NCBI RefSeq assembly: GCF_000372725.1
Contig: NW_005201792.1
Location: forward strand, 103,452 to 167,451
Length of the DNA stretch: 64,000 nucleotides
From: Emiliania huxleyi CCMP1516
Taxonomy: Eukaryota
Direction of reading: 5' to 3'
The notes under the pieces were generated by a model. It ran no database searches. It had not been told where the DNA came from and saw only the letters and a program-made list of their open reading frames with translations. Position 1 is the first letter of the stretch. Every line of letters starts with the position of its first letter. This document shows positions 1,217 through 59,844 of this stretch, one piece after another. The translations under genes and the position numbers were made by a program.

Positions 1217-3160
1217 ATGTTGAGCGTGTGTGCGCAGTGTGCGCTAATCCCTTCTGGCACGCCGGAGCGAGTGTGGGCAATCGGCGACCTGCATGGCGAC
1301 GTCGGCTGCGCCCTACATTGGGTGGAGCGCACGGGGCTGCTGCGGAATGCATCGTTGCCAGCGGCGGAGTGGGAGTGGACAGAGCCGTCGAGCCAGCTGG
1401 TGTTCTTGGGCGACTACATCGACCGGGGACCGGACTCGAAAGCCGTACTCACCCTGGTGCGAGAGCTAACTTTGCGCTTCCCTGAGCACGTGCATGCTCT
1501 CCTCGGAAACCACGAGCTGAACCTCCTTCTCGACCGGGCGAGGAGCCCCAGCGGCGGCCGCTACCTCGAGTACGCCTACGCCGCTGCTCACCCGGCGCAG
1601 TACGAGGCGTGGCTGCCCGAGGGTGAGCGGACAGAGGACCTTGACGGGGTGCTGCGCTCGCTCCACGATGCGCTGCTCTCCGTCTACAGACGCGGCCTGC
1701 ATGCCCAGGGCGTGCCGATGGCGCCCGACGGCCCGTCCCAAGGACCTTGCAGGAGCCTTCTGGGAGCCTTCCTACAGGCGTGCAGATGGTGCCCGACGGC
1801 CCGTCCTCGATCGTCGAGTTCGTGCGCCCCAAGGCCGCGCGCCCGCGCGTTGCAGACGCCCTCCGCCGTTGGCAGCGTGCATACATGCGCGGCGTGAGCA
1901 GCGACTCCCCCCTCGGCGAGTTCCTGCACCGGCCTCTCTCCGTCCACCTGGCAGGCGGCTTGCGCGGCGGGCGGTCGCAACGGGGATGAGCCGAGATGAG
2001 CCGAGATGAGCCGAGATAAGCCGAGAGTATAGGCACCGTGTTTGTGCACGGCGGGCTCGCAGAGGAGCTCCTCGACAGAGAGCTGCCGCACTCCCCCTCC
2101 GCCCCGGTGCGGCCGCTCGACTCGCTCGAAGCCCTCGACGAGCTCAACGCGCGCTGGCTCAACGCGACCGGGGGACACGCGCCGCCGCGGCCAGGCGAAG
2201 AGAGCTATCACTGCAATAGCTATCACTGCTACCTCGGCCACTTCGGCCACCTCTCGGCTACCTCTCGGCCACCTCTCGGCCACCTCTCGGCTACCTCTCG
2301 GCTACCGCTCGGCGGTCGCTCGGCTGCACTTGGCCGATCTGTCGGCTATCTCTTGTCTATCTCTCGGCCGCCTCTCGGCCAGGCGAGACGCGTGCGTCGG
2401 CAGAGGCCGCGGCGCTCGCGCAGTCGGACCTCGTCGCCTTCGCGTCGGAGATGGTTGAGTACCGAGGGCTGCACGGCTCGTACGCAGGCAGGTACGCCGA
2501 CCGCCACTCGCGGCGTGGTCGACGGCGCGCCGCGCCTCCGGAGCAGGTTGCGTGCAACCTCCCAAAGGCCAAGCAGCACCGAAGCTGCAGCACCGAAGCA
2601 GCAGCACCGTGCCTGACGTCCGCAGGTTGCTTGCGACCGCGTCGCGGCGGTGCTGCGCCGGCTGAACGTGTCACGCATTGCGGTCGGCCACACGCCCGAG
2701 GACAGCGTGCGGGTGCGGTGCGGCGGGAGACTGCTGGCGCTCGACTCGACGCTCTCGCGCAGGCGCAGAGGCTACATCTCGATTGCATCTCGGGCTCTAC
2801 CTCGGGCTTTTCCTCGGCTCTCCTCGGCTTTTCCTCGGGCTCTACCTTGGCTCGCCACTTCCCCCCGCTCGCAGCTTTCGGGCGCACGGCAACTACTACT
2901 GCGACGAGCAGATGGAGCGCGAGGAGTCTCCGGGTAGGAGGGGCTAGGCGCGGCGAGGCCCCGAGATCACGCGTCGAGATTGCCTGAGCGATTAGGAGCC
3001 GAGGATCTGCGCGCCGCGGCGCGAGGCGTGCGAGGGGCAGATCGTGCGCCTCGAGCGGAGGGACGCGCGGGCGGCGTGGGTGCTGCACGTCGTGGAGAGC
3101 GAGCCGGACATCGAGCGAGACGAGGGCGCCGTCGAGGACATGAAGCTGGAGCTGCGGTGA
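1217..3160 (+). CDS. Calcineurin-like metallophosphoesterase, Shewanella-like phosphatase (SLP) type; multi-exon
   Basis: PPP motifs occur in order across exons: IGDLHGD, LGDYIDRG, LLGNHE, FVHGGL, IAVGHTP. ATG at 1217; ends EDMKLELR-TGA at 3160. Confidence 0.85.
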
Positions 3161-3719: not shown

Positions 3720-6207
3720 CTAGGACTCGATGCCGGTGAGCCCGTCCTCGGGCGCGGGGAAGTCGTCGGGCATGATAGTCATCAGCTCGTCCTCCGACAC
3801 CTGCTCACACGGGCAGCTGCTGAAGAGACGCCGCTCACAGCCACGGCGGTCGTCGCTCGTCCTCCGATACCATCCCGTTGGACGAGGGAGACATCTTCTC
3901 CTCGAAGACGCGGATGGCGGAGCCCATGCGCGCGAGGTCGATCGCGTTGCGCACCTGCGCACGCGCGGAGGGCGGGGCTTGAGTGGCGTGTGCGCTGCGT
4001 GTGACGACAGCCCCCAAACTACGGACGCATCACGCGACCTTCAGCAATGCTGCGACGGAGGACATGGTCCTTGGTCCGTGGGCTGCGCATCTTGGGTGCG
4101 CACCGTGCGCGCGTTGGCAAAGAAGGGCATGCGCTTGCGCTTGGAGAGGTAGTCCTTGAGCGCCGGCTCCGCGCCTGCACGAGAAGGGTCCGAGAAGGGT
4201 CCGGGAAGGGTCCGAGAGGAGGCTGCTGCTCGAGCTGCTCCGCGCCAGGGCCGAGCTTGTATTCGAGCTCGCGGCACATCACCTGCTCGCCGAGATTAGC
4301 CGAGATCAACCGAGGTTGTCCGAGGTTGTTGATCGCCGAAAGAGTGCTCGAGCTCTCGCGGCTCATCACCCGCCGTCCGAGAGGAGCCGAGAGGAGCCGA
4401 GAGGAGCCGAGAGGAGCCGAGAGGAGCCGAGAGGAGCCGAGAGGAGCCGAGAGGAGCCGAGACGAGAGCCGAGAGGAGCTGAGCTTGTTCTCGGCGGCGC
4501 AGCACCTTTCCAATCTCGACGAGCTCCTCGTCCTCGTAGTCTGGGAACTCGATGTGGTTGCCGATGCGCGAGGCCATGCCGGGGATGAAGCCGTAAAAGG
4601 CGTCCATCTTGTCCTTGTACCCGGCGAGCACGACGATGATGTCCTCCTTGTTGTTCTCCATCACGTTGAGCAAAATCTCGACCGACTCTTGCCTATGTTT
4701 AATTATGAATTAATTATTCATAATTAATTTAAATGCCAGATCTCGACCGACTCTTGCCCGTAGTCGCGGTCGTTTGCGGCGTTGTACAGGTAGTACGCCT
4801 CGTCGACGAGCAGAATGCCTAGAGCGTGAGCAAACCGCAGTCAGCTTTCGGAGCATCTCGTGAATGCATACGAATACAGTGAGCCAATACAGCGGAGTGC
4901 GTGTCCTCTCGAGCGCCAGTCGGCAGACAAGACTACGTCTTCCCCAGCTAGGGAGCAGCATGCCGCCCATCGCCTTTTTGACCATCTCCTTGGTCTTTGG
5001 CGCCTACGCGACATGTCTCGGACGTGTCGTGGACGTGTCCTCGACCTCCCGACCGCCTGCCCGGCCTCGGGCGCCGTGTGGCCCACGTACTGCCCCACCA
5101 GGTCGTCGCGCGTCGCGACGACCACGTGCCCCGTGCGGCAGTAGCCCATCCGCTGCAGGATCTGGCCCATGCGCAGCGCGACCGTCGTCTTGCCGGTGCC
5201 GGGCGCGCCTGCAGGAAGGGTCCGAGAGGCTTGCGCGAAGGGTCCGAGAAGGGTGCGAGGTCTCTCCCTGCCGCGCCGGTGAAGCCCATGTGCAGCGACG
5301 GGACCGACGTCTCGAGCCCCAGCTTGAGCCGCATCTTGTCCACAACCAGCAGCGACGCGATCTCGCGCACGCGCTGCTTGACCGGCTTCAGGCCGATCAG
5401 GTCGTAGTCGAGCTTCTCGAGGATGTCCTTGACGCCCTCCTTGTACATGAAGTCGTCGACGGTGCCCGCCGCGACGTCGTCGGGGATCTGCCGCATCAGC
5501 GCGATCTTGCGCTCCTATGGGGCATGTCTCGGACATGTCCCGGACATGTCCCGGACGGCTGGTCGTGCCGCTTCATCAGGGCAGTCTCGCGCTCCTTCGC
5601 CTCGCGCGCCAGCTGCGCCGCGTTCTCGCGCGCAAAGATCTCCTCCTCCTCGAGCCTCCTCTCGACGTCCGCCTACCCACCAGATCAGCCGAGATCAGAC
5701 CAGCCGAGATGAGGTCGCCTCCTCGCGCCTCCTCCCGACCTCTTTGAGCCGGTCCGATGCTCTGCGGTAGTTCTTGACGTTGCCGTCGGTCACAACCTTG
5801 TCTCCGGCGGCAGTGTGGCCTTCGAAGTTGCCGTGCGCATCTGTCTTCAGCCCGGCATCGTACTGCACAGCTGGCGGGCCGGACGGCGGCGCGGCGGCCG
5901 CCTGCTTCATCGAGAAAGCCCAGTTGTCGTCCGGGTCATCCTCAACGTCCGGCGTTGGGCCCGTGCCAAAGCGCTCCGGTGCCTTCTTGCCGTCGCGCGT
6001 GACTGTGTCAGCCCAGCCTCCTTCGTATTGTCTGATTGGTTTCCTCAAGTGTGCGAGCATGGGATTGCCGTCGTCCGAGGGCGGCGGCGGCAGCTGCATG
6101 GCGGCAGGAGCGCCGCGGCATATGCCCACGCGGCGATGTCTGGCCGCAGCACTGTGGGCCTGCGACGGCTTTAGAGCCGACGGCTGCGCCACGAGGAGCG
6201 CGAGCAT
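3720..6207 (-). CDS. cbbX: Nuclear-encoded CbbX (red-type Rubisco activase, AAA+) with N-terminal targeting extension; about 10 introns
   Basis: Spliced protein reads [35 protein letters not shown] (Walker A), [28 protein letters not shown] (Walker B), [22 protein letters not shown]. Confidence 0.95.
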
Positions 6208-6852: not shown

Positions 6853-9800
6853 ATGCTCCTGCTGCTCGCCGTCAGCGCGCTCCATCCTCCTCTCGCCGCC
6901 ACGGTCCAGCGGCGATGCCGTCGACGTGCGGTGTATCTCGCGGAGAGTCCCGGCGCCAAAAAATTGACGCTCATCCGGCACGGTCAGTCCGAGTGGAACC
7001 TGGCTAACCGCTTCACCGGCTGGGTGGACGTCGACCTGACCACCCGGGGCATCCAAGAGGCGCGTGAAGCGGCTCGTGCACTCAAGGCGGACGGCACAGA
7101 GTATGACCTCGTCCTCACCTCGTGTCTCCGCCGCGCCGTTCGCACCTCCTGTCTACTGCTGTCCGGCGCAGGGCGCCCTGCGGTGCCGATGGTCAAGGAC
7201 GCGCGGCTCAACGAGCAGCACGCCGGCGCGCTGACCGGGCGGAACAAGCGGTCGCTCGCCAAAGAGCACGGCCACGAGCAGGTCATGCGCTGGCGGCGCG
7301 GGTTCGCGGTGCCACCGCCGCCCATCTCGACGAAAGCTCCGCTGCAGAGCGCCATCTGCCGCGACGAGAGGTACCGGCGGCGGCCTTGCGCAGGCGGCGC
7401 CAGCGGAGGTCCGAGCCAGGACGTGGTCGTTCCTCGCGGGGAGACGTTCCGCGACTGCCTGGAGCGGGTGAGCGAGGTGTGGTCTGGGGCACGGCCGAGC
7501 ACTGCCTCGTCTACACGGCCCTACCTCGGCTGCACCTCGGATGTAGGTCTGGTCCGACACGGTGGAGCCGGCCCTCCGCGACGGCAAGAACGTGCTGGTC
7601 GTGTCTCACGGAAACGCACTGCGCGCGCTCATCAAGCTGGTCGACGGCGTCAGCGACGAGGACGCCGCCTCGACATGCCCCCCCCACGTCCACACATGCC
7701 CGTGACATGACATGCACATGCACATGCACATGCACATGCCGCATGTGCATGTGACATGTCCGAGACATGTCCACAGGACGCCTACCACCTCGACATGCCC
7801 ACCGCCTGCCCGCTCGTCTACGAGGCGCTGCCAAGCGCCGGCCCCTCGGGCGTGAGATTCGGCGACGCGCACGGCACGTGGGGCACGTCGAGCGTGCTGC
7901 GGCACGGCCGCTTCCTATACGACGAGGGGCGGGTGCAGCAGGCGCAGGAGATGATGCGCTCTCAGGTGCTTCGGGACATCGCCGTCTCGACCATCTCTTC
8001 GACCGGCACGAGCGGCATCGCGACGTGCGACGCATGGTCCCGAGGACGGGGTGGCGCCGGTGCGGCAGGCGGTGTCAGCTGTGAGTGACCAGTATGGGTG
8101 GCTGAACAGGTCCGAGGAGGGGGTCTCGTCGGTGCGCGTGTCGGTTGGTGATGGCGAGCCCTCAAGCAGTGTGCGGACGAAGATTCGGAGCTACTCATGG
8201 GAGATGACCTTGGACCACGGATTCCTCGTCAGGCGAGTCCTTCAACGTGCGCACGATGGGCAAGCCGGAGCGGCAGCCACAGGCGGGCGAGGGGGACGGG
8301 GAGGGGGGAGAGGAGGACGGGACGGAGGTGCGCATCCTGCCGCCGCCGCGGCGGAACCCGCGCTACGACGGCGTGGGAGGTGCGGCGGCGAGCTCGGCGG
8401 AGCTAGCGGCGCAGGCGAGCCTCGAGCTTGCCATGTTTGCGAAGAGCCAGCGGCAGCAGGCGGCGCAGCAGGCCGCGGCGCCGGGTGGCCGCGAGGAGGC
8501 GGCGGCGCGGCGGCAGTCACGGGCGAGCCTGATCTTGCTGCGGCACCCCCTCGCCACGTCGATGCTGCATCACGGCGTGGACGGCGTCTCTTCACAGCTC
8601 TCGCTGTCCACAGGCACGGCTACTCGGCTTGGAACGAGGAGAACCGCTTCACCGGCTGGGCCGACCCGCCGCTGACGAGCCGGGGTCGCGAGGAAGCGCG
8701 GCTCGCGGGCTCGCTGCTGCGCGAGGCAGGCGTGCGGCGCGTCGAGCGCGTGTTCTGTTCGCTGCACGAGCGAGCAATCAAGACGGCGTGGCCTCCTGCT
8801 CGGCGAGGTGGAGATCTCGGGGCGATCTCGGGTGATCTCGGGTACTCTCGCGCAGGCGTGGCTGCTGCTCGACGAGATGGAGATGCAGTGGGTGCCGCTC
8901 AGCTACACGTGGCGGCTGAACGAGAGACACTACGGTCCTCACCGGCCGCGGCGGCTGCCGAGACCGGCTCTTAGCCACTACTCGTGAGGACCACCTCTTC
9001 TCGTCAGGTGCCCTCACCGGCCGCAACAAGCGCAGCTGCTCGGAGGAGTTTGGGCTTGCGCAGGTGCAGCGGTGGCGCCGCTCTGTCAGCGAGGCGCCGC
9101 CGCCGCTCGAGGCCGAGGCGGCGGCGGCGCTCCTCGACGGGCGGTGCGAGCACGTGGCTTGCGCCCGCGCGCATTGACCATGACCCTTTGAAGTCTTTGA
9201 ACAACGAACAGGTATGAGGGCGTGCCGGCGCCCGCGTCCGAGTCGCTCCTGCAGTGCGCGGACCGGCTGCGCCCCTTTGTGCGAGGCGAGCTGGCGGAGG
9301 CGATGCGGCGGGCGGTCGACGAGTGCGGTGTCGTGGCGGCGGAGGAGGGGAGGGCGGTGGAGGTGCCGAGCTTCGTCATCTCGTCGAGCGAGAACGTGCC
9401 GCGGATTCCTCGAGAGTGCACTCGGCAACTCTCGGAGCGCACCCTCGGCCCCCCTCGGGTCGTCTCAGGTGCTGCGCGCTCTCGTGCGCGACCTCGAGGG
9501 GCTTGCAGACGAGGAGACGCCGCTCATCGACGTGCCGCTCGCCAACCATCCCGCTGGTCAACTCTGCCAAGGTGATTCGTCTTCAGTCCTGCCTCTAGGT
9601 GCCGCACGCCATCCCGCTCGTCTACTCGCTCGACGCGGACCTGCAGCCCATCCCGTCGGGGCTGGCAAAGGCGCCGCTGCGGGCTGGCTGGTACATGGCC
9701 GACCCGGACCGACTCGCCGCCTCGCAAAAGTCCATCCGCGAGGAGGCGGGCTGCCGCCGCCGGGCGCGAGAGCCGACTCCATGGCACGTCCCTCACGCGT

Positions 9801-9930
9801 CCCGACATGTCCGCAGGTGGACTGCCGGTTGGGCGAGGCGCCGTGCGACGTGCCGCCCGAGGAGTGCTTTGTGGAGAGTCTGCCTCGCCCGCCGGGGGCG
9901 CTGGAGTGGGTCTGTGAGCAGGCGCAGTGA
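6853..9930 (+). CDS. Tandem two-domain cofactor-dependent phosphoglycerate mutase (histidine phosphatase family) with signal-peptide-like N-terminus; multi-exon
   Basis: Domain 1: LIRHGQSEWNLANRFTGWVDV, RLNEQHAGALTG, VSHGNALRAL. Domain 2: LLRHGYSAWNEENRFTGWADP, RLNERHYGALTG. The linker stays in frame if two short introns near 8037-8109 and 8154-8232 are removed. Confidence 0.85.
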
Positions 9931-12490: not shown

Positions 12491-14197
12491 TCAATCACAC
12501 CGTTCACTCAGCGCAAAAGCGACACGCCACTGGTCCCTGCGAACGCCGGCGTACATGCGCTGCGCGCAAGGGGCGGGCGCGCCGCCCGATCTCGTGGCTG
12601 CGCGCGCAAACGGCGCGCAGAAGACGAACTCGCGGAGCTCGCGCTCCTTCGGCCGGCTGCCAGCGGCGGCGAGCAGCGCCGGGCCGAGCGCCTACAAGAC
12701 CAAGAGCTCGTGAGGAAAGAAGGCTGTTCAGCGCGATCGCCCTGGTCTCGTAGTGCGTCAGTGCGTTGCTAAAGTTGCTGCAGTGTGCGTGCGCCTCTCC
12801 GTCTCCCCAGCGCCCTCCTGACCGCCCGGCGTCCAACTCTGCTGCAAGTCTAGCATCTCTCACTGCGCACGTCGTTCGGCCCACAGCGCCAATCGTACGG
12901 GTGTAAGTGGTATCACTGACTGACTGACTCATCTAGACCTCCCATCGCCTGCCGCACGTCCGGCTCGAGCAGCACTTCGGTCGGATCACCACCCGCTGCC
13001 TCCTCCTCCTCGCCGCCGCCGCCGCCGCCGCCGCCGGACGGCAGCGGCGGCGCGACGGACGGCTGGCCGGACGCCTAACAGAGCAAGCTGCGAGTCCAGA
13101 CGGGAAGGAAGCTGTGAGGGCGATGTGTCGGCCGGCTGCCGCGAGCAGCTGCCGCACCTGCGTCACGAGTACACGCAGAGGCGGGGTGTGAGTACGCGCG
13201 CCGTGTTTCCGAGCATCGCGCGAAGGGAATGGCTGAATGCGGCTGAATACAGCTGAACACGTGTGCCCTCGAGCTCTAGTCAGGACACACAGATCCTGCC
13301 CCGCATCTAGGCTGACGCACCAGCGAAGTCTGGCCCGGCATCCGGGCGGAGAGCGCCCCCGCCGCTGCGAGCGACGCCTCGAAATCCGCCAGGCGGGCGA
13401 CGAACGCGTCGGCAGCCGCCGCAGAGGGGGGATCGCTCGCGGCGCCGCGGCCGCCGCAAGCGGCGCGGAGGCCTTCCCAGAGCTGCGCGGCGCGCTCCTA
13501 AAAGCAGAGAGCTGTCGCTGAGAGGCCGCTGTGATCGGAGGTCCCAGAGCCGCGCGGCGCTCCTCCGCGCGCGGCTCAAGTTTGGCGGCGGCGCAGCGGG
13601 CCATCGCGTCGAGGAGGTGGGCGATCGCGCCTCAAACAGGAGAGCTGTGAATGAGGGCACACGGCGCGCTGGTTGGCCAACACGTTGGGCGCGCCTTCAG
13701 AGAAAATCTGCGAGTGCACAAGAGAGACAGCGGGGGGTGGTGCTTGGGGTGTCGGAGCGCACCCATGCAGAGCTGCGAGAGAAGCTCGGGCAGCGGGGAC
13801 GCGTCGAGCGCCTCGAGGGCGGTTGCGGCGGCGGTGAGGCGAGAGAGGCAGCGGTGAGGGTTTGCACGCACCGGTGTGTGCGTATGTGTGTGTGTGTGCG
13901 AATGCGTGTGTGCGTATGTGCGTGTGCGCACGTGCGCGTGCGCGTGTGTGCGTGTGCGTGTGCGTGTGTGGTGAGACATATGCGCCTCGAGAGCGATGTG
14001 CGCCTCGCGCGCGGCGTCAAAGAGCGGCCGCTGCTCCGCGGCGCAAAGCGCGCTCGTGCCCTCCCACAGCACCGCCCACAAGTTGCCTATCGGCGGGCCT
14101 CGAAGTTCCTAAGGGGGCTCCTAAGGGCGCCACAGCACCGCCCACGAGTTGCCTGGCGCGCGCATCCGCTCGCTCAACACGCCCCGCACATGGCAAA

Positions 14198-14237
<40 letters not shown>

Positions 14238-17200
14238 CTCCGCCGTCGCCGCTCCCTCGTCCGCGACCCAGTCGTGCGGCGACTGCCAGCGCACAAAGTC
14301 GGCGAAGGTGGACGGCGGGTTGGCGGCCTTGAAGGCCTGCATGCCGGAATTGATGACTGACATCTCGGGCAATCTCCGACAATCACTTACATCTCGGTCA
14401 ATCTCGGGCAATCTAATCTCGGCTGATCTCGCCTGCATGTCGGACTTGATGCGCCCGGCCTCGGCGGCCGCGAAGCTGGCAACCTGAGGACGAACGCCGC
14501 GAATCCGTCAGGGCGGTGACCGAGATGCTTCGGCGGTCGCCGAGCCGCCGCCTGCCCCTCGCCCCCCCGCCCCTCCTCGGGGTGCCGCGCCGGCTCAGGT
14601 GCGGCGAGCTGCGGGAAGGCCAGCTGCGTGATCGGCTCCCACAGCGGCTGACCAGACACCTCGCCGACAAGCCCAGGGAGCGGACGGAGGCAGCCCCGCC
14701 CCGCCCCGCCGCCGACACGCTTGGCCGCAGCCGCGAGGCAGCGCTCGTCCGGCTCCTACGACAAGAGAGCCCTCGACTAGAGGGAGCTGTGAGCGCAGAT
14801 CTGCCCAAGCAGCGCTGCTCCGGTGCCTCGCACTCGGCGAACTCCGCCTCCTCTCCCGCCGCCTCCGCCTCCTCTCCCGCCGCCTCCGCCTCCTCTCCCG
14901 CTGCCTCCGCCTCCTCTGCCCCCTCCCCCGCCGCCGCCGGCGGCGGCGGCGGCGACACCGAACGGGGCACACGGCGCGAGGCCGCCTGCGAGGGCACGCC
15001 AGGGACGTGTCGTGGACAAGTCTAGGGGAATTCGCTGCACACGGCGCGCGCATGCGCCTCGCGCCGCACGCACGCATTGAGGAGGTACAAGCGCTGCTGC
15101 AGGCTGCAGCCGCCCGCGGCGTCGCAAGGCAGATGGGGCAACTCGTGCAGCCGCTCCCACGCGACACGTGCCTGGCCGAGGTGCAGCCGAGGTGCAGCCG
15201 AGGTGCAGCCGAGGTGCAGCCGAGGTGCAGCCGAGGTGCGGCCGAGGTGTGGCCGAGAGTGGCCGAGAGTGGCCGAGGTGCAGCCGAAGTGCAGCCGAGG
15301 TGCGGCCGAGGTGTGGCCGAGAGTAGCCGAGAGTAGCCGAGAGTAGCCGAGAGTAGCCGAGAGTAGCCGAGAGTGGCCGAGAGTGGCCGAGATGAGCCGC
15401 TCCGTCGCCTCCTCGCGCAGAGACAGCCACAGCTGCAGCAGCACCGCCGCAGGGCTGTGTCTCCCGCCTACCCCGCCGCCGGACGCGGCCGAAGTGGCGC
15501 CGCTCGCCGAGAGGGCGACGGCGGCGATGCGGCAGAGGAGCGAGTCGCGCGCGAACGGCGCGTGTGGCAGCGGGCGCGGCTCGGCGGGGGTGTGCGGGGC
15601 GGGGGGAGAGTGCTCCGGCGGCGGGTAGGGCGGCTGGGGAGAGAGGAGGCGGCGTGTGGCGGCGGCGGCGGCGGCTTGCTGCAGCCCGCCCGGGAGCGCG
15701 GCGAGAAGGTCCACCACTCCACGCGCGCCTAAGATTCATCAACTATTCCGCCTCCACTCTTCATTCTTCTTTGTAGAAGGCCAACCACGCAGCACGCGCC
15801 TGCAGGGGCGTACCGTGGACGCGTCGCGGACATGTCGCGGACATGTCGCGTGGTCGCCGCGCCGCGCGCCGCTCTCCGCCGCCGCCGCCGCTTCGACCCA
15901 CCCCGCCAGCAGCGCCTGTCGGACGTGTCCTGGACATGTCGCAGGACGTGCCCCCGGACGTGTGCCCCTCCCACCCGGCAGCGCCTTCGCGGCAGCGGCG
16001 GCGCCCTCGCCCCCCGACGCGAGGCATGCGGCGGCGGCGTCGCGCTCGTGCGCGCTGAGCGGCATGCGGCGCAACCTCCAGCCTGCAGGCACCAGGGTTC
16101 AGGTACGGTGTGGGTGCGGTATCGAGCCTGCGGTCTCAGAGCACCGCGGGATTGCAGCGGCGCGTGATTGCAGAGTGCGCAGCAGGCAGCGACGTGAAGC
16201 CGAGTGCGCGTCTGCTCGAGAGCAAATCGGAGAGCAGATGGGGTCTGTGTTCCGCATCCAGACCCTCGAGATAGGGGGGAGATATCCGCATCTAGGGCCG
16301 CCCGCTGTGAGCGGTCTCGGACGACAGCTCGGGCAACGGCGGCGCCTGTTCACAGTTGGACGTGTGATGAGACGCCGCCTTCACGGCCTGTCTTCACAGC
16401 TCGACCGACGGCTCGGGCAGGGTCGGCGCCTCGCCCTCTTGCTCCCCGCCCTCTTGCTCCCCGGCTCTCAGCCACTCCTCCGGCGGCAGCTGCAGCGACC
16501 ACTCGCACGAGAGGGCGAGAGAGTCGAGCGGCGAACCTACCCTCGCCGAACCTCGCCCACTCTCGGCGGATGGCAGAGCGGCCTCGCCCACTCTCGCGGG
16601 TCGAGCGGCGCACCCGCGCCCGACAGCCAGTGCCGCAGCCCGCCGCCGCGCCACCCGCCTCCTACAGACTTGCTTCTCGGGCCGCAATCAACTCGCGCGG
16701 TACGGACCGGGGGGCCGCCCGCCGCCGCGCCGCCCGCCGCCGCGCTTCGGCGCCCGGTCGCTGCCCCACGCGGCGAGCGGCAGCGCCGCGCCGCCAGAGA
16801 GGGGCACCGTCGAGAGCGAGGCGACGGCGGCGGAGTCCCAGGCGTCCGCCGCGCCTGCGAGCAGGCAGCTGCGCATCATCGAGGAGGAGAAGCGGCGGAG
16901 GGGCAACTCTCCCCTCTCGTCTGCCGCGCGCGCCGCCGCGAGGCCACTCGTCGAGGACGAGCGTGCGGCGGGCGGAGACGCGCCTGTGGGGACATGTCTC
17001 GGACATGTCTCGCGCAGGTTGTGGAACTGTCCTTGGACAGGACGAGCAGGCGGCGGGCGGAGGCGCGCAGAGGTTCGCAGCCGGCGAGGAGCAGCCTGCC
17101 GCTCGCGTCGCGCGGGCCTGTCCTCGCTCCGCCCAGTACCTTGGAGGCAAACAGCCGCAGCAGCGCGCGGAAGCAGTCGTCGCCTCGGAGGCTCGCGCCG

Positions 17201-38149: not shown

Positions 38150-41100
38150 ACCGCAGGCGGCCCTCGGCCTCGACGGAGCGGAGCTGTGCGGCGCCACCAT
38201 CGCCGTCCGGCGCGGCGGGAGCGACGCCTCACTCGCTGCAGAGGAGGACGCTTCTCCCGCGCCGTCCGCGGCGCGCCTCCCTCCCCCTCTGCCTCCGCCT
38301 CCTCCGCCACCCCACGCCTGCAGCTGTGCGCAGGCTGACGGCTCGGCGTGGACTCGGGTCGGGTGTGTGGAGAGGAGTCGGGCGGACCAGGCGCCGGACG
38401 AGCCCACTGCTGGAGCGGAGGGTGGTGCGGAGGGTGGTGCGGAGGGTGCCGTGAGCGAGTGGACTCGGGTCGAGTCTGTGGCGGAGGAGGGCGTCCCGCG
38501 CCACTACGACTGCCGCATCGCCGCCAGCGGTGGAAGGGTTCTCGCACGCGACCCAGCCGCCTCGCCACGCGCCACGGCAGCAGCAGCAGCAGCAGCAGCA
38601 GAGCCGCCCGCCTCATGGCAGGAGGAGCCCCCACCGCCCCCACCGCCCCCCCCTCCACCTCCGCCGCCGCCGCCGCCGCCGCCGCCTCTCCAAGCCCGCG
38701 CCTACCCCGCGCGAGCGGGCCGCCCCCACCCCCCATCGCCGCCGCTCGGCCCCCCCCACACTCCGTCGCCGCCGCTCGCCTCTCTGCTGTGCGTCGGGAG
38801 CCGGGACCCAAACCCGCTGCTGTCGCTGCGGCTGCCGCTGCCTGGCTCGTTCGAGATTGGCCGCGACGAGGGCTGCGACGAGACCATCGGAGAGTGCGCC
38901 GCCATCTCGGCCTCGCACTGCAAGCTGCACCTGCGGCTTGGCGGGGGCGGAGATCAGCCGGCCGGAGAGCGGGCGGTGGAGGTGTGGCTGGAGGACCGCT
39001 CGACCAACGGCACATTCGTCGGCGGCGCCAGGCTCGGAAAGGGCAACACGCGCCGCCTCGTCCCCGGCGAGCGCTTCTCGCTGCTGCACGACGGCCCGTA
39101 CGCCTTCGAGCTGCGGCTCGGTCCGCCCCGGCCAGACAGCGACCCGTCGGAGGAGCTGCGCAAGCTCAACTTGCCCGACGGAGGGCCGGGCAGGTAGGCT
39201 CGGCCAGCAGGGGGCGGGGGAGGGGCGGGCGGGGCGAGAGGTGCGCCGAGGTGCGTGTCCCGCCCCTCGCAGGTCCGCCCCGCGAGCCGGCGTCGACGGC
39301 TGCTGGCGGTGCGGCTGCTGCGGCAGCGCAAACTACCCCCGCCGCTCGACGTGCTTCCGATCCGCCTGCGGCTCCTCCCGCGACGCGCGCGGGACCGCCC
39401 TGGTGCAAGCGTACCTGGACAGGCTGCAGAGCTCCTCCGACTCCGCCCCCGCCTCCAAGACCACCGAGGGTCGCGGCCATCCACGCGCTGCCCCCGCCGC
39501 TGCTGCCCCTTCTGCGTCTGCTGCCCCTGCTGCCTCTTCCGCCTCTGCTGCCTCTGCTGCCTCTGCTGCCTCTGCTGCTCCTCCGAGAAGGCTGCGAGAA
39601 GCCTCCGAGAAGCCTCCGAGAAAGCGACGGGCTGCTCCTGCTGCGCTTGCTACGCCTGCTGCGTTTGCTGCGCCTGCTGCGCCTGCTGCCGCTGCTGCCG
39701 CTGCTGCCGCTGCTGCCGCTGCTGCCGTCGCCGCGTCGTCGACGGAGCCGCGCGAGGAGCCGCGCGTGGAGAGCGCGGGCCCGGCGGAGCACGGGGCGCG
39801 GCGCAGCAAGCACGAGCGCGTGGTGCGCTCGCCTCCACACGGCCTCCGCTCACGGCCTGCCCTGCGGCACAGGACAGAGCGCGCGCAGCCGCCGTAGCGA
39901 GAGTCCACGGCCCCCCCCCTCGCAGGCGCGGCCGATCACAGAGTGGAGGCAGAAGCCCTACAAGCCCATCCAGAGGCGGATGCTGCCCGCGGACGGCGAC
40001 GAGGCGCCGCGCCCCAAACACCGATTCCTGGCGCGGGAGAGGAGGCGTCGCCTCGACCTCGGACGTGTCCTCCTAGGCGACCAAGGAGACGGTGCTTCCG
40101 GCGGGAGCGGACCCGCTGAACCACGTGCACCCTTCAGCGCGGTGCTCTCGCCCCTGCACGCTCACGCGAGCCCGCCACCCGCCCTGCACCCCCACACGCC
40201 GCGAGGCGCAGGTACACGCGGCAGAGCTGGTCCTCATATCTCCCCATATCTCCCCATATCTCCCCATGTCTCAGGTACACGCAGCAGAGCTGGTCCGTCC
40301 ACCAGTACAACCGACTCAACGAGAGCTTGCGCGGCGGCAGCTCCGGCGGTCGCTCCGCTCGAGGAGGGGCGACGCACGGCGCGGAGCTGGCACGCCGGAT
40401 GCAAGCTGCGGCGGCGCCACCGCCCCCCGACGCCCCCCTCGAGTCGGTCGACTGGCCGCTCGAGCCGACCGCGCCGACTCTCGGCCGGGAAGCGGGCGGT
40501 GCGACGGACGTGCCGATGCTGCGGCTCTCCGGGCCGGCCCCGACGCTGCGAGGTTTCCGACGGCTGCTGGAGGCGTGCGCGGCTGTCGTCGGCCCGGCGC
40601 GCGTGCATGAGGCAGCGCAGCAGGGTGGGCAGCGCTTGTGGCCCATCTTTGTCCTCTCGCGCGGCCGGCCGGAGACGGCGCATCTGCACTGGGGTACAGA
40701 GCACGCGCTCGGCGGGGAGGGCGAAGGCGAGGGCGAGGGCGAGGGCGGGGGCGAGGGTGCGCTAGTGGTGGCGGTGGTGTCGCCGGAGGAGGAGGCGGAG
40801 TATCGGCGCTGCTGGCCTGGCTCGCTGCTGCTGGCGCTGCCTCAGGCGGGCAGGCCGGTGGGGTACGCTCGGCACGTGCTTAAGCGGGCGCTGCAGTGGC
40901 GCACGCCCTTCTTCTGGATGTGCGACGACAACCTCTCGACGTTTGTGCGCATCGAGCGCGGGAGCGACGGCCTGGCGCGGAGGCACACGCAAGGCTCGCG
41001 CTGCACCACCTCGTGTGTCAGCACGCCCTTGGGGCGAGATCTGTCCCTCACGCGGCACTCGTGACACGTCAGGTCCGCTCTTTCGCGAGGCCTTCATGCA

Positions 41101-43774: not shown

Positions 43775-44148
43775 CTAGCCCTTCTTCATCTGCTTGCCGG
43801 CGCGGATGACCTCGTCGACGAGCAGCAGCTGCGCCGCAATGACGGCGGCCGAGTCCAGCATCTGCCGCTTGACGCGGAAGTTGTCCCACAGCCCGGCGGC
43901 GCACGGGTCGAGCGGCTCGCCTGTCTCCACGTCGAGGCCCACCTGGCCGGAGGGAGGCGTGCGGCGACACGTCACGCGCAGGCACTCGCTGGCAGGCACT
44001 CACTGGCACGCGGCGGTCGCTGGCATGTCTCGTTCAGTGTGGGCGCGCCGGTGCGGCGGGGTTGCCAGAGGCGGCAGGCGGCGGGCGCGGCGGGCGCGCG
44101 ACGGCGGGACCGCGGGGCGTGGGAGGCAAGGGAGGCAGGGGAGGGAAG

Positions 44149-44196
<48 letters not shown>

Positions 44197-47052
44197 CCGC
44201 GCCTTTGGCGAGCCCGCCTCCTGCTCCTCCTGCAGCTTGAGGAGCGCGTCCTGCGCGTCGTAGCCGGCGTTGTCCGCGAGCGTCTTCGGGATGACGAGCA
44301 GCGCGTCGGCGAAGGTCTGCACGCCGAGCTTTGCGCGGCCCTGCACCTTCTTGCGGTACTCCATCAGGTGCGCGTGGCAGAGCACCTCGATGCCGCCCGC
44401 GCCCGGCAGCAGCTGGCCGTCGGTGACGGCGTTGGACACGGCGCGCAGCCCGTCGCGGACCGCCTCCTGCGGGGGGCGTGTCGTGGACGTGTCGTGGACG
44501 TGTCGTGGACGTGTCGTGGACGTGTCGTGGACGTGTCGTGGACGTGTCGTGGACGTGTCGTGGACGTGTCGTGGACGTGTCGTGGACGTGTCGTGGACGT
44601 GTCGTGGACGTGTCGTGGACGCGTCCCCGGCGGCGGGTGGCGGGGCCGAGGGGCCGCTCTCCTTGATCTGCGAGATGACGTGCGGGTGCGCGCCCTTGAT
44701 GAGGATGGTGCACCTGCCGTGTCGCGGGCGTGGCGTGGGCGCGGTCGCGTGCAAGGGGCCGGCCGGGGTCGGGTGGGCGGTGGCGCACGAGAAGGGGTTC
44801 GAGACGCCCTCGAGGAAAGTGTACGTCTCCTCGCCCAGCGTCTGCTCCGACACCTCCTCCGCGTACCCGAGCACCTGCACGCGGCGGGGCGGGGCTCGCC
44901 GCATGCCCCGGCCCACGCTGCACACACGGCCCCTGCCGTGCCGCTCATATTGACGGAGGGGTCTGGAGGGGTCTGGAGGGGTCTAGGGGGCGCCCAGGAG
45001 GTGTAAAGGAGGCGTGCAGGAGGTGTGCAGGAGGTGTGCAGGAGGTGTGTAGGAGGTGTGCAGGAGGTGTGCAGGAGGTGTGTAGGAGGTGTGCAGGAGG
45101 TGTGCAGGAGGTGTGCAGGAGGTGTGCAGGAGGTGTGCAGGAGGTGTGTAGGAGGTGTGCAGGAGGTGTGTAGGAGGTGTGTATGGAGCGTCGCCTCGGG
45201 CGTCATGTCGTCGATCGAGTTGACCTGCTCGCCGCCGCACGCGAGGGTGATGCGCTCCATGTTGCGCCTGCGCGGGGGGCGGGGGGCGGGTGGGTGCGGG
45301 TGGGGTGGAGCGGGTGAGTGGGGGGGTGCGGCGCGGGTGTGTGATGGTGTGTGGTGTGCGGTGTGTGGTGTGGTGTGGGTGAGGTGTGTGGAGGGTGTGG
45401 GAGTGGTGTGGGCGATTGGTGATTGAGTTGCGCGGCACCGCTTTGCGCGGCGCAGCGCGAGGATGCCCTCCTTGGCAAGGAGGTCGAGGGCGAGCGGGTC
45501 GATCCCCTTCTGGTTGATGACCACCATCGTCTCGCCCTCGCCGCACGCCTTGCGCTTCAGGTCGATGATCAGCTTTGTCTTGTCGTCGACCCACTTGCGC
45601 TCCGCCTGCACCATCTTCTCGCGCTCCTGCTCACACGCGCACACACCACGCAACGCTCAAAGACGGGACCCCTCCCCCTCCCCCTCCCCCTCCCCCTCCC
45701 CCGCCATCCCTAGCGTCGCTCCGGTGAGCGAGAAGTAGAATCCCGACGTCGGGCTGGCGGCTGCGGGCTGGCGGCTGCGGGCTGGCGGCTGCGGGCTGGC
45801 GGCTGCGGGCTGGCGGCTGCGGGCTGGCGGCTGCGGGCTGGCGGCTGCGGGCTGGCGGCTGCGGGCGGGGGGTGAGGGGGGTGAGGCTCCTCTGCGTTGG
45901 AGTAGTAGAAGCCCGAGTTGACCTCGGAGCGCATGTACTCGAGGTCGTAGTTGATGGTGAGGACGCGCACCTAAGAGCAGCTCATTGAACGTGAGAGGTG
46001 AGACCAGAAGACAAGACAGAGTGCGCTCGAGGTGGACAAGCGCCTTGCTGAGCTGCTTTGGCATGCCGGGGTGCCTCCCGCCATGGTCGAGGACGAGGCC
46101 CTTGACGAGGCGAGAGTCGGTGCCCGCCTGCAGGAGCGAGGAGACGCGCGTCGGGAGCGGGCCGAGGAGCGGGCGGACCGGGAGGAGAGCAAGGGGAGGA
46201 GAGCAAGGGGAGGAGAGCAGCCAGGGGAGAAGGGCAGCATCCGGGGGAGGAGCGGGGGGGGGAGGGGAGCAGGCGGCCGGGCAGTGGGGTGGAGCGGCTG
46301 GCAGCCGCGAGCGGGTGGGTGCGGCGTGGGAGGGGGTGGTGGGGGGGGGGGGGTGTCGGGGCAAGGCGGGGATGTGGCGGGGCGAGGGGCGAGAGGGCAG
46401 GAGGGTGGTGCGGAGAGGGCAGGGGAGGCAAGCGGGAGTGGAGGAGGGTTGCCTTGTGCTGCATGTGCATGATCTCGACCATGTGCAGGTCGAGCGGCGT
46501 GTCCGGCTTGCGGATCGTCAGCACCGCGTCCACGCAGATGGCGGTAAACATGTCCGCCAGCTCGCGGTGCATCTTAGTGCGGAGCGAGCACTGCGCAATC
46601 TGGAGGAGCAGGTCGCGGTCGGCGCAGTCCTTGGCGAGCGCGGTCCGGTCGATGTACTCGAGCAGCGACGTCTTCGCCAGCTCGATCCCCTCGCACAGCA
46701 GTCGCGGGTGCACCCCGTCCGAGAGGTGGCGCTCTGCCTGCTTCATCATCTCGCCGACGACGAGGACGGCGGAGGTGGTGCCGTCGCCGGTGATGTCGTC
46801 CTGCGCGGTGGCGATGCGCGCAATCATGCACGCGGTCGGGTTCTGGATCTGCATCTCGTGCAGCAGCGTGTTCCCGTCCTTGGTGAGCTTGATGTCGCCC
46901 GCGCCGCCGACAAGCATCTTGAGCGTGCCCTTGGGACCGAGGTTGCTCTTGAGCACGTCCTGCAGGCCGCGGGCCGCGTTGATGTTCATCAGCGACGCCT
47001 GGCCCGACTTGAGCACATCGGCGTTCGGGTTGAGCTGCTGGGTGGCCGCCAT
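43775..47052 (-). CDS. CCT6: T-complex protein 1 subunit zeta (chaperonin CCT6); multi-exon
   Basis: [70 protein letters not shown]. Confidence 0.97.
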
Positions 47053-52578: not shown

Positions 52579-55500
52579 TCAGGCCTGCTTGTACTGCAGC
52601 ACCATCTCGTCGGCCGACTTCCATACAAAAGCGCGCACCGCGCCGAGGGACATGTCGGGCGCGAGCGGCTTGCCGCTGGCAAAGAGGGCGAGCGGCTTGC
52701 CCGACGGGACGCGCTCCTCGACGTACGCGATGACCTTGTCGAGGCGGAGAGCGGTCGCGGCGGCGAGCTTGTTGCAGTCGGGCGGCAGCAGCGGCAGGCC
52801 CGAGGCGGGGTGCGGCTGCAGGAAGAAGGAGAGCTTGAGCGGTGCCCTCGGAGAGAACTGCGCGTGCAGCACGGCCTGCCCCACCCACGACGGTACCGCG
52901 CCGTCGGGCAAGTCGCCGAGACGGGACGCCCTGCTGCGCGCCGTCACCACGCTGCCGTCGCATATCAACACCGGCGTCTGCTCCAGCGAGCGGAACGCGC
53001 ACTGGCCGCCGCCGCCGTCGCTCCCCGCGCCGCCAGAGTTAGCGCCGCCAGCGCCGCCGCCCCCGGCGCCGCTGCCTCCCGCGCCTGCAAGAGAGGGGAG
53101 GCCGACTCCGGCGCGTGTGCGACGGCCTTTGCTGGCGGGCAGGTGGCGTGGCGGTGCGGGGGCGGTGCGGGGGCTGCGCTGGCGCGCCGTTGGCAGCGGC
53201 ACGGGAGGGCTTTTGGCGCTCGCGCCAGCTGGCAAAGAGGGCGCACAAGAGCTGCTCGCCGAGGTTGACCCGAAAGTCCTCCTGTCGGCAGGCGAGGCCC
53301 GAGCTGACCGGAGATGGCGGCGGAGGCCACTTGGGTGCCGCTTGGGTGCCACTTGGGTGGTGGCCTCTCGGCGGTCTCTCGGCGTCATCTCTGGGACCTG
53401 TCCGGCGATGCCGAGCTCAGAGGCGTATCCTACGGCCGTGGGGCACGCGTGAGGCATGCGGAGAGGGGAAGGGGGGGAAGCGGCGAGAGGAGAAGCTGCC
53501 CTCGGCGTTGAAGGTGCTGCTCGCGCACAGCGTGAGCTCGAGCGCGCCCGAGCGAGCCGATGCGGTGAACCACGAGGCGCTGTACGTGCCTGGCGGGGAG
53601 GAGGGGAAGCACAGAACACCCGCCCGGTGAGACACGCGGCGTTGCATGTCCGACTAGTCGATCTCTGTCTGTCTGCCCGTCCCCTCGACTGTCCGTGCTC
53701 TAGCCCTCTCGGGCGGCGGCGCACGTTGCGCCGTCGGCTCGGCCAGCTCGGCGAGCAGCTTGTCGTACTTCTCGCCCGCGTCGAAGCGGCGCACGCAGCT
53801 GCCCCGCGGCAGCACCTTTGCAGACGCCGCAGCCCGTCACACGGCCGCACTCGCAGCCGCACCCCTCTGCAGCCGCACCCCTCTCCCCCGCTGAGAGACG
53901 ACTCGCGGAGGAGGAGAGGGCAGGGGGGAGAGGGCAGGGGGGAGAGGGCAGGGGGGAGAGGGCAGGGGGGAGAGGGCAGGGGGGAGAGGGCAGGGAGGAG
54001 AGGGCAGGGGGGAGAGGGCAGGGAGGAGAGGGCAGGGGGGAGAGGGGGAAGAGGCTGGAGAAGCGCCTCCCACAGCGCGCAGAGCCCGCGCGTGTCCTCG
54101 GTCAGGATGCGCCGCTTGCACGGCAGCACCGCCAGCCGCTTCACAGCGGCGCTGCCTCGGATCGTTGCCACCTGCAGTCGGCGAGAGGCGGCGGAGGGGT
54201 GGGTCTCGAGGCGGCGGCGGCAGATGGAGAGGGAGAGGGAGAGGGAGAGGGAGAGGGAGAGGGAGAGGGAGAGGGAGAGGGAGAGGGAGGAGCGGCAGGG
54301 AAGGGGGTGCGGGAGAGGCGGGGAGGGAGAGGGGGAGGACGAGGGAAAGGAGGAGGGCGAGGCTTCCGCTGGAGGAGAGGCGCACCCGGTGGGAGGGCGG
54401 AGCCTCGCTGCAATCTCCGCTCCCGCCTCTCTCGTGCCGCCGCGCCAGATCGCCGCCCGCCGCCGCGCCGCCCGCGCCGCCTCCCGCGCCCGCCGCCGCG
54501 CGCCAGCAGGAGAGGGACGAGTCCGAGGTTGCCACCCAGAGCAGCTCTGGCGCCCAAGCCGGGCGGTGCAGCCTCAGCGCCGGCGCGCCGACCTGGCAGA
54601 CCCCTCGCGGCGGCGGCGGCGGCGGCGGCGGCGACGCGTGCGCGGCGAAAGAGTCGTCGAGGACCAGTCCGTCGCGGCCGCCGTAGAGGACGCGGGAGCA
54701 CGACTCGTCGACGTCGATGCAGAAGACCGAGTCGCTGTGCGGCCTGGCGGGCGGGGCGGAGGGGTCGCGGGAGGAGAGGCGCCGGGGTGCGGGAGCAGCC
54801 GCCGCCGGCGTGCGTCGCCTGAGCTCGGCCTAGACACTTCCTAGACACTTCCTAGACACTTCCTAGCCGGCGTGCGTCGCCTGAGCTCGGCCTGCACGCG
54901 TCGCTGGCCGATGCTCCAGAGCTTGACCGAGCGGTCCGAGCTGCACGAGACGAGGCAGCCGCCGTCGGCAGAGATCGCGATCCCGCGCACCACGTCTGTG
55001 TGGCCCACCAGAGAGCCGACCGCCGCCGCCTGCGCGCGAGGGTCCCAGAGGCGGAGGGTCGCGTCGACGGCGCCCGTGGCGATGAGCCCGCCGTCGAGCT
55101 TCACCTACGGCGCCACCGCCCCGCTCAAGCAGCCGCCTGTGTGCGCCGGCGCGCAGCGCCCGCCCCTAACCGCCAGCGCGTAGATGGAGTCTCCGTGCGC
55201 CCGCGCGCCCTCGCTGCCGCCGATGACGACTCGCGGCGCCAGGCGCGCCACGTCCCACACGACCACGCAGCAGTCGCAGCCGGCCGAGGCGAGTGTGCCC
55301 GCGTCCGCCGCGTACCCGAGCACCTTGACAAAGTCGGTGTGCTGCCGCAGCGTGTAGCACTTTGACGGTGTCCCCGTCTCGCCCTCGGGCCGCCAGAGCT
55401 TGATCGTCCGGTCGCTCGAGGCGGAAACGACAGCAGAGGTCAGATCGCCGTCCGTCAGCAGCGCGAGGTCGTTGACCCAGTCTGTGTGCTCGTCCACGGT

Positions 55501-55701
55501 GAAGCGCAGCCGCGGGACTCCACCACCCTCGGGCTCGCGCCAGCAGCGCACCGAGCCGTCACGGCCGCCGGTAAAGAGCTCGCGCGACGATCCCCACGCC
55601 GACGCGCAAGTCGAAGCCAGCGCGTTGATGCCAAAGCGGTGACCCTCAGACGCGCCATCGTCGAGGAGGGTGAGCGTCACCGACTTTCTGGACGCCGACA
55701 T
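52579..55701 (-). CDS. WDR48: WD-repeat protein 48 (UAF1); multi-exon
   Basis: LFTGGRDG, HTDWVNDL, SASSDRTIKLW, HTDFVKVL, DSIYALA, LRLWDPR, GHTDVVR; C-terminal KLSFFLQP..KVIAYV..LAPDMSLGAVRAFVWKS. Confidence 0.93.
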
Positions 55702-55933
55702 GCACACCCAGCCCAGCCAAGGGCCGAAGCCAGAAGAATTTAACGCTTTCTTCATTTACAACGCGAGGTGACCTTTGAAGTTTGAACGTGTGGGCGGCAG
55801 CTGTCTGTTTACAGGCGCTGGCCGCCCGCGCGCGCGCCGGACCGGCTCCGGCACGTCCGGCGCTGGGCGGCGCGCGTCCACACTGCGCGTCGCGCAAAAG
55901 GCGAGCGCTCGCCGCCGCTACGGCGGCGGCGGC

Positions 55934-59784: not shown

Positions 59785-59837
<53 letters not shown>

Positions 59838-59844
59838 AACGTAA
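57775..59844 (+). CDS. Kinesin-family motor protein, intronless, with coiled coil and C-terminal poly-Q
   Basis: IRVIVRVRP, AYGQTGSGKTHT, SMLEVYNE, NARSSRSHAV, LVDLAGSER, HIPFRDSVLTRLLQ, STLRFADRAK. Confidence 0.96.

What the first reader, a model, noticed from the sequence alone, without database searches (positions are those of the whole stretch)
54804..54893. Apparently newborn intron in WDR48: perfect 28-bp duplication around three copies of an 11-mer
Seen (minus strand): cag|gccgagctcaggcgacgcacgccggc + taggaagtgtc x3 + tag|gccgagctcaggcgacgcacgccggc. The copies at 54804-54831 and 54866-54893 are identical. The 62-nt insert (54830-54891) has an in-frame stop, so it must be spliced if the gene is functional. 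The filler unit itself supplies the acceptor AG. Inference: variable-length target duplication plus a reiterated short unit resembles target-primed or reiterative (telomerase/RT-like or Pol-theta-like) synthesis at a staggered break.
Basis: partly seen in the sequence, partly recalled or inferred. Interest (0 to 1): 0.75.

Follow-up and report, generated by a model that had tools for sequence, protein, structure and literature searches.

The report
Introns born from duplicated exon starts
In a coccolithophore alga, a 28-base duplication wrapped around a short repeat sits on the edge of an existing intron rather than being a proven new one, but many introns in neighbouring genes begin with a copy of the next exon's first 20-35 bases, so the same kind of event likely created them and would help explain this alga's unusual GC splice sites.

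Summary
The 28-bp duplication and 34-nt 11-mer filler are real. A separate 62-nt newborn intron is not needed: RNA contigs of 4 of 4 runs join 54881 to 54743, a net 137-nt GC-AG excision whose donor lies inside the first copy. DNA of 4 of 4 runs shows no empty allele but extra 62-nt units, and in two runs that donor reads GT. Two-step splicing (62+75) gives the same mRNA and is not excluded.

The event is one of a class. Of 32 introns defined by protein homology, 18 begin with a decayed copy (about 22-39 nt) of the next exon's start: cbbX 8/10, PGM 10/11, WDR48 0/3, CCT6 0/8. The donor dinucleotide (GC, GT, GA) equals the next exon's first two bases in 24/32 (chance 37%). Fillers are shared 10-11-mer families, a 12-bp hairpin, or unique sequence.

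Most likely mechanism (inferred): fill-in of a staggered break about 30 nt wide plus end-joining filler; the donor comes from the exon and the acceptor from the filler. It works like Daphnia break-repair intron gain but with far longer duplications. I did not find it described for this alga, though the main genome paper could not be read.

The parts
54866..54893 (-). Copy A of the 28-bp duplication: last 13 nt of exon 2 plus first 15 nt of the intron; holds the working GC donor at 54880
54832..54865 (-). 34-nt filler, three 11-mer units of a repeat family abundant in the genome; purine-rich on the sense strand
   Evidence: (823-1189 records laid per run, depth piled on this bin)
54804..54831 (-). 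Copy B: intronic copy with a decoy GC donor at 54818; use of this donor alone gives a premature stop
54744..54880 (-). Net excised interval, 137 nt, GC-AG (75 nt, 54744-54818, without the insert)
   Evidence: RNA joint in 4 of 4 runs; same boundaries from two homologues by spliced alignment
54879..54879 (-). Donor +2 polymorphism, GC or GT, in copy A only
   Evidence: X6 all of the exon-side contig, X8 depth 6.1 of 14.7, absent in X1 and X12; placement in copy A
55105..55170 (-). WDR48 intron 1, 66 nt, GT-AG
   Evidence: RNA joint in 4 of 4 runs
52579..55701 (-). WDR48/UAF1 homologue, host gene
3801..5739 (-). cbbX gene, ten introns; 8 of 10 begin with a copy of the next exon's start; intron 4505-4283 holds two such copies
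4693..4757 (-). Young-looking cbbX intron, 65 nt: 18-nt exact copy of the next exon's start plus an AT-rich filler with a 12-bp hairpin
7477..9816 (+). Phosphoglycerate mutase gene, eleven introns; 10 of 11 begin with a copy of the next exon's start
14087..14152 (-). Rab3GAP intron, 66 nt, predicted from the duplication alone (19 of 20 matches); flanking exons are collinear on the Pfam model and all three unspliced frames stop
14337..14432 (-). Candidate Rab3GAP intron of the opposite polarity: its 3' end copies the end of the previous exon; boundaries read by eye
40212..40274 (+). Candidate 63-nt unit: 25-nt copy with 1 mismatch around a 10-mer array; splicing not tested
1710..1777 (+). Candidate 68-nt intron in a metallophosphoesterase gene: about 30-nt copy plus 11-mer filler; splicing not tested
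43943..46452 (-). CCT6 gene, eight mostly long introns without a significant footprint (negative test set)

Best explanation
The feature is a real 62-nt insertion (28-bp duplication plus three 11-mers) lying across the donor of an existing WDR48 intron and removed with it from the mRNA, and it is likely the scar of a staggered DNA break about 30 nt wide that was filled in and joined with filler DNA, a process that likely also created many introns of neighbouring genes. Shown: the structure, the net 137-nt excision, extra-unit alleles, and the exon-start copies at the 5' end of 18 of 32 introns. Inferred: fill-in duplicates the segment X; an end-joining polymerase (Pol-theta-like) adds 35-45 nt by copying 10-11-mer arrays from elsewhere, by snap-back or without template; where X begins G|GC, G|GT or G|GA and the filler ends in A or AG, the unit X+filler is a precise 62-80-nt intron whose donor comes from the exon and whose acceptor comes from the filler. 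Here the event hit an old donor, so copy A keeps working and copy B is a decoy. Unequal exchange between copies would then give the X-array-X-array-X alleles.
For: Net excision 54744-54880 in 4 of 4 RNA runs. A k=31 simulation reproduces the DNA contig breaks with an extra 62-nt unit (X1, X12), GT in copy A plus an extra unit (X6) and a mixture (X8); an empty allele predicts breaks at 54831/54866 that are not seen. A spliced aligner blind to the duplication idea recovers both RNA-defined introns. On its first 24 introns, intron 5' end versus next exon start scores 22.7 against 6.8 for cross pairs, 0 of 100000 permutations; with CCT6 added, 18 of 32 exceed the null p95, 31 of 32 next exons start with G, and the donor dinucleotide equals the exon's first two bases in 24 of 32 (expected 0.37). 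Copies span 22-39 nt (15 alignments), bracketing the 28 nt here. Without annotation, imperfect 20-nt repeats peak at 60-89 nt spacing (24 events in 30 offsets versus 39 in 220, p 1e-7), 14 of 24 versus 7 of 39 with splice geometry (p 0.002); 10 of 29 10-11-mer arrays versus 4 of 80 other tandem repeats have flanking duplications (p 0.0002). Relatives lack the introns: P0170 (cluster with Chrysochromulina cbbX, uninterrupted gene calls on contigs up to 85 kb) spans all ten cbbX junctions. Fillers are of three kinds, as Pol theta makes them (PMC4912351): shared 10-11-mers (13 of 24 tails versus 1 of 24 exon controls), a 12-bp hairpin at 10% GC (z -4.7), and unique sequence.
Against: The footprint is absent in CCT6 (0 of 8, permutation 4883 of 40320) and WDR48 (0 of 3), so it is not universal; decay with age is my reading (score falls with intron length, rho -0.45, p 0.01), not a shown fact. 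cbbX was the discovery gene. The plain test for AG before the second copy was weak (odds ratio 1.2-2.0, p 0.015-0.39). Junction microhomology here is only 3 nt and 1 nt. No empty allele of any site was seen, so insertion is inferred from sequence footprints and distant relatives. No enzyme was identified. Pol theta inserts in vitro have a median of 7 bp (PMC4912351), far shorter than these fillers. RNA and DNA runs are not from the same strains. Only one 64-kb window could be analysed.
Confidence: 0.62

Rival explanations
1. The 62-nt unit is itself spliced: either as 54891-54830 followed by an 11-nt micro-exon and the 75-nt intron, or as 54880-54819 followed directly by the regenerated donor (recursive splicing).
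For: All routes give the same mRNA (for the micro-exon route; the recursive route read from the sequence). The unit has the geometry of the productive introns, CAG|GC...TAG|G, and scores 52 in the same test. Introns here cluster at 65-80 nt (19 of 24), close to 62 and 75.
Against: No 62-nt or 75-nt skip and no depth at 54768-54813 in 4 RNA runs (contigs drop rare forms). The filler is purine-rich (pyrimidine share 0.40, the minimum among 24 introns, mean 0.59). Copy A keeps the old donor intact, and it reads GT in two runs.
Confidence: 0.2
2. The fillers are tiny retroposed elements or the tails of 5'-truncated non-LTR elements, inserted by target-primed reverse transcription with long variable target duplications.
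For: Filler families recur across genes, including a non-repetitive one shared by 3870, 8543 and 16429 (20 of 496 tail pairs versus shuffled mean 2.7). The 11-mer is abundant in RNA runs. Long variable duplications fit this chemistry (recalled).
Against: Exon controls gave 10 such pairs and opposite-strand pairs 8. Several unrelated unit families plus an AT-rich hairpin; no poly(A); no longer element seen in the window. No parent element found in viral contigs or phages.
Confidence: 0.2
3. Plain tandem duplication by slippage (Rogers model): a 62-75-nt exon segment is duplicated, both splice sites come from one AG|GY, and arrays grow later.
For: A known, demonstrated route (PMC3443670). One candidate of this polarity at 14337-14432. 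Arrays do expand later (CCT6 introns).
Against: Intron 3' ends show no similarity to the previous exon (4.3 versus null 4.7; 75364 of 100000 permutations). Only 12 of 32 upstream exons end in AG. Events with near-identical copies already hold fillers unrelated to the flanks.
Confidence: 0.08
4. Cut-and-paste DNA transposon (MITE-type introner) with a donor co-opted from its target duplication.
For: Donor co-option from the duplication is known in introners (10.1101/2022.06.06.494994, Fig. 2B passage).
Against: Duplications of 22-39 nt and variable, against 3-8 nt in the papers read; no terminal pairing in the two array fillers folded.
Confidence: 0.05

Closest known systems
Intron gain by repair of staggered double-strand breaks, Daphnia pulex (Li et al. 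2014, PMC4202315; abstract and sections 19, 33 read)
   Same: Insert flanked by a direct repeat, filler without a clear source, repeated events at one site, AT-rich example.
   Different: Repeats there are 4-17 nt; here about 22-39 nt and retained as the intron's 5' part, supplying the donor. Fillers here are often shared 10-11-mer arrays. Here up to 8-10 introns of one gene carry the mark. There empty alleles are shown; here none was seen.
Introner elements that carry the acceptor and take the donor from the target duplication (Gozashti et al., 10.1101/2022.06.06.494994 and PMC12130899; review PMC11282704; passages read)
   Same: Donor from host sequence, acceptor from the insert, mRNA unchanged, many introns per gene.
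   Different: Short fixed duplications (3-8 nt), often terminal inverted repeats, end-to-end similarity between introns. Here the first 25-35 nt are locus-specific, so the both-ends similarity rule of that pipeline would miss them; 'huxleyi' does not occur in the main text of either Gozashti paper (supplements not read).
Tandem genomic duplication model of intron gain (reviewed in PMC3443670; passages read)
   Same: The intron contains a copy of flanking exon and excises precisely.
   Different: There both splice sites derive from one duplicated AGGT and the whole intron is exon-derived; here only the 5' part is, and most upstream exons do not end in AG.
Small tandem duplications from paired nicks and Pol theta terminal transfer (PMC8355091, PMC4912351; abstracts and passages read)
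   Same: Nicks 43-50 nt apart yield duplications; Pol theta adds untemplated, snap-back and in-trans copied sequence.
   Different: Mammalian experimental breaks, short inserts, no intron creation; no such enzyme was tested in this alga.
GC-AG excess in Emiliania huxleyi (Feldmesser et al. 2014, PMC4028052; passages read)
   Same: 56-65% GC and about 4% GA donors; here GC 15, GT 13, GA 4 of 32.
   Different: That paper ascribes the excess to genomic GC content; here the donor dinucleotide tracks the first two bases of the next exon, pointing to inheritance from the duplicated exon.

Membership tests
Newborn intron (this 62-nt unit) | Excised as its own unit | tested here: inconclusive
   Only the net 137-nt joint is listed in 4 of 4 RNA runs; two-step routes give the same mRNA
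Newborn intron (this 62-nt unit) | An allele without the insert exists | tested here: not met
   None in 4 of 4 DNA runs laid; contigs drop rare variants
Newborn intron (this 62-nt unit) | Interrupts formerly continuous coding sequence | tested here: not met
   It straddles an older donor; 75 nt of intron remain without it
Break-repair intron gain (Daphnia type), class in this window | Direct repeat at the intron-exon boundary above background | tested here: met
   18 of 32 above null p95; met in cbbX and PGM, not in CCT6 or WDR48
Break-repair intron gain (Daphnia type), class in this window | Filler without a single source family | tested here: met
   Several 10-11-mer families, a hairpin and unique tails
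Break-repair intron gain (Daphnia type), class in this window | Intron absent from relatives or other alleles | tested here: inconclusive
   Absent from uninterrupted gene calls of distant haptophytes; no within-species empty allele tested for these introns
Break-repair intron gain (Daphnia type), class in this window | Dependence on end-joining enzymes | not testable with these tools
   No genome held; needs genetics
Introner elements | Introns at different loci similar at both ends | tested here: not met
   5' ends match their own next exon, cross pairs score 6.8; only tails share families
Introner elements | One splice site co-opted from the target duplication | tested here: met
   Donor dinucleotide equals next exon's first two bases in 24 of 32
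TIR DNA transposon or MITE | Terminal inverted repeats | tested here: not met
   Fillers at 54832-54865 and 40233-40272 show no terminal pairing; the cbbX filler has an internal hairpin only (3 fillers folded)
TIR DNA transposon or MITE | Short target duplication of fixed length | tested here: not met
   22-39 nt, variable
Tandem genomic duplication (AGGT model) | Intron 3' part copies the previous exon's end | tested here: not met
   No signal in 24 introns; one candidate exception at 14337-14432
Non-LTR retroposition | Longer parent element ending in the filler repeat | not testable with these tools
   No genome held; none in viral contigs or phages
Telomerase addition at a break | Filler is one fixed telomeric unit | tested here: not met
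   Fillers belong to several different 10-11-mer families; the telomere unit of this alga was not determined here

The most novel reading that the evidence does not exclude
Coccolithophores of the Emiliania lineage have a dedicated, still active machinery that opens genes with a roughly 30-nt stagger and writes three helical-turn-sized repeats into the gap. It built a large share of all their introns, explains both the GC/GA donor excess and the intronic 10-11-mer repeats, stacks new units on old introns (as here, possibly spliced recursively), and is invisible to introner searches.
Probability: 0.3. Interest if true: 0.92.

Novelty: new variant of a known kind. Interest (0 to 1): 0.72.

Why it matters
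Most new introns have no traceable source, and bursts of intron gain are credited to introner transposons. Here the source is legible: the intron starts with a copy of the next exon. If this holds genome-wide, a globally important alga gained many introns by a non-transposon or unrecognised route, its GC-AG and GA-AG majority is inherited from exon sequence rather than caused by drift in GC content, and each intron carries its own clock (copy versus exon). It also warns annotators: the reference model P0001 takes a GT inside the 11-mer and adds six residues that the RNA does not support. The single locus alone is modest: a copy-number-variable unit at a splice donor.

Tried and rejected
No whole genome was held, so the genome-wide count and the search for a source template could not be run. 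A 19-nt pattern scan of metagenome contigs gave 34 loci, all chance matches of at most 27 nt. Two array patterns in viral contigs gave 0 and 0; the intron against phages and a CCT6 exon against plasmids gave no match. The annotation-free test for AG before the second copy was weak at three thresholds; the spacing test was run at three thresholds and I report 16 of 20 matches. The first CCT6 run failed because the homologue has in-frame stops; it was redone with X at those codons and was negative. A homologue search for a full Rab3GAP test never ran; only one Rab3GAP intron was checked, by Pfam collinearity. Branch-point-like motifs were inconsistent across tails. Assembly artefact: rejected. 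Use of the decoy donor alone: rejected, it stops early and is not seen. Earlier findings of this scan: three answered look-ups, nothing. Three papers were not held (Read 2013, Huff and Zilberman 2014, Huff 2016); what I say of them is recalled.

Full report
Observation. The two 28-nt copies are identical, 62 nt apart, around 34 nt of an 11-mer; the period-11 run overlaps them by 3 nt and 1 nt. Ten Markov copies of the window gave longest exact repeats of 13-22 nt. Exon 1 is 100% identical to an Emiliania huxleyi protein and 55% to a Chrysotila protein named WDR48 homolog; the E. huxleyi protein has WD40 and DUF3337 domains.

What is spliced. Translation alone shows that one intron from the GC at 54880 to the AG at 54744 restores a frame that aligns without gap to the transcript-derived orthologue P0004. 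I laid 4 of the 7 RNA runs listed, from 4 studies: all four join across this 137-nt interval and across intron 1; none lists a 62-nt or 75-nt skip. Two limits: the RNA strains are not matched to DNA, and routes through a separate 62-nt excision (54891-54830 with an 11-nt exon, or 54880-54819 then the regenerated donor) give the same mRNA.

Alleles. I laid 4 of the 14 DNA or unlabelled runs listed. All hold both junctions and none lists a joint that skips the insert. Contig breaks at 54833/54804 and 54893/54864, and junction depths mostly 1.3-1.8 times the exon-side contig, are reproduced by a k=31 simulation with one extra 62-nt unit; an empty allele predicts breaks at 54831/54866, which are absent. 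In X6 and part of X8 the donor in copy A reads GT while the inner copy keeps GC; the simulation reproduces those 47-, 61-, 45- and 46-nt records. The change is also an ordinary CpG transition, so selection is not shown. The contig over 54646-54833 has about half the exon-side depth in all four runs, so a second 3' haplotype may be unlisted. The locus is therefore a copy-number-variable compound repeat on an old donor.

The class. Flanks of 10-11-mer arrays in the window are duplicated in 10 of 29 cases against 4 of 80 other tandem repeats; by eye 2 of the 10 are repeat-edge artefacts and 1 of the 4 is a true case. Reading the cbbX gene suggested that introns start with a copy of the next exon. 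I then defined introns with a protein-to-DNA spliced aligner that knows nothing of this idea and recovers both RNA-defined introns. Set: cbbX 10 (two homologues agree), PGM 11 (from P0241; 8 agree with P0251), WDR48 3 of 9 (6 rows dropped where two homologues disagree). Intron 5' end versus own next exon scored 22.7 against 6.8 for cross pairs, 0 of 100000 permutations; above null p95: cbbX 8 of 10, PGM 10 of 11, WDR48 0 of 3. Intron 3' end versus previous exon gave nothing. Copies run 22-39 nt and drift A to G and T to C (19 changes versus 6 reverse). Nineteen of 24 introns are 65-80 nt.

Out-of-sample tests. CCT6, eight introns of 73-325 nt, shows no significant footprint (0 of 8; 4883 of 40320 permutations); one of its junctions may be mis-set by a codon. 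Overall 18 of 32. A Rab3GAP intron predicted only from the duplication (14152-14087) has stops in all three unspliced frames and its exons match Pfam positions 74-120 and 123-154. Without annotation, imperfect repeats peak at 60-89 nt spacing and carry splice geometry more often than distant ones, though the plain AG test was weak. Uninterrupted gene calls from other haptophytes span all ten cbbX junctions and the WDR48 site itself (P0002), consistent with gain in this lineage; these relatives are distant and date nothing.

Mechanism. Shown: a duplicated segment of about 30 nt, filler, and a donor equal to the exon's own first bases in 24 of 32. Inferred: a staggered break is filled in and joined with polymerase-made filler. 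Paired nicks give such duplications experimentally (PMC8355091), and Pol theta mixes untemplated, snap-back and in-trans synthesis (PMC4912351), matching the AT-rich hairpin and the shared 10-11-mer families. Since 28 of 32 upstream exons end in G, the acceptor's G can come from the duplication and the filler need only end in A. Why this polarity dominates over the classical AG|GY duplication is unexplained; the filler may supply 3' signals. The long fillers and their shared vocabulary keep a retroposed micro-element open. In the joint tables, most unique spacers between two copies of this same 11-mer array at other loci are 12-39 nt, and several read by eye as an exon end plus donor; this fits repeated events but was not tested.

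Relation to what is known. It works like Daphnia break-repair gain (PMC4202315; repeats 4-17 nt) and like introners that take the donor from the target duplication (10.1101/2022.06.06.494994), but fails the introner tests of both-end similarity, inverted repeats and short fixed duplication. The GC donor excess of this alga is published and ascribed to GC content (PMC4028052). That 10-11-bp repeats are enriched in its introns is recalled from the genome paper, which was not held. Eight searches on this alga's introns or on intron gain listed no paper describing exon-start copies in its introns; I saw listings for most, passages for those cited, and no supplements, and subscription papers are missing, so absence from print is not established.

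Verdict. Observation real; the specific newborn intron unproven and unnecessary; the process behind it probably real and widespread but patchy among genes. Interest 0.72, new variant of a known kind.

Noticed in passing
window 57658-59844 (+) and 30308-33229 (-): Kinesin and TPP-enzyme genes run 2-3 kb as single open frames, while cbbX and PGM hold 10-11 introns in about 2-2.4 kb: intron gain looks very uneven among genes.
   Followed up: no
window 5594-5515 (-), 7661-7776 (+), 44661-44467 (-): GA-AG introns whose next exon also begins GA.
   Followed up: partly
window 54859, protein P0001: The reference gene model appears to use a GT inside the first 11-mer, adding six residues; RNA supports the GC donor at 54880. 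It also shows that the reference strain carries the array.
   Followed up: yes
window 4757-4693 (-), protein P0136: A read-through gene call from another contig follows the same 18-nt copy and then differs, read by eye, suggesting another filler at the same cbbX site.
   Followed up: no
proteins P0121, P0122: A second E. huxleyi cbbX with a different N-terminus; P0121 reads through intron sequence like the window's, suggesting recent duplication or conversion.
   Followed up: no
window 3870-3801, 8543-8613, 16429-16346: Three introns in different genes share a non-repetitive 3' filler (local scores 24-31), a possible small element family.
   Followed up: partly
introns of 137, 145, 149, 223 nt: Four of the five long introns are near multiples of about 70-74 nt, as if units stack; 4505-4283 holds two exon-start copies.
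   Followed up: no
window 35486-35637: An (AC)76 run is flanked by a 12-nt direct repeat.
   Followed up: no
window 40120-41064 (+): Frame with a TET-associated glycosyltransferase domain (PF20691, E 1e-12), just downstream of the 40212-40274 unit.
   Followed up: no
window 55701-55702: Run X1 has 5 extra bases at the likely WDR48 start codon context.
   Followed up: no
L035:2500-4100 and L036:2500-4800: Eukaryotic CCT6 genes inside records titled as bacterial genomes; L035 has in-frame TAA/TAG as in ciliates and L036 is intron-rich: likely contamination.
   Followed up: no
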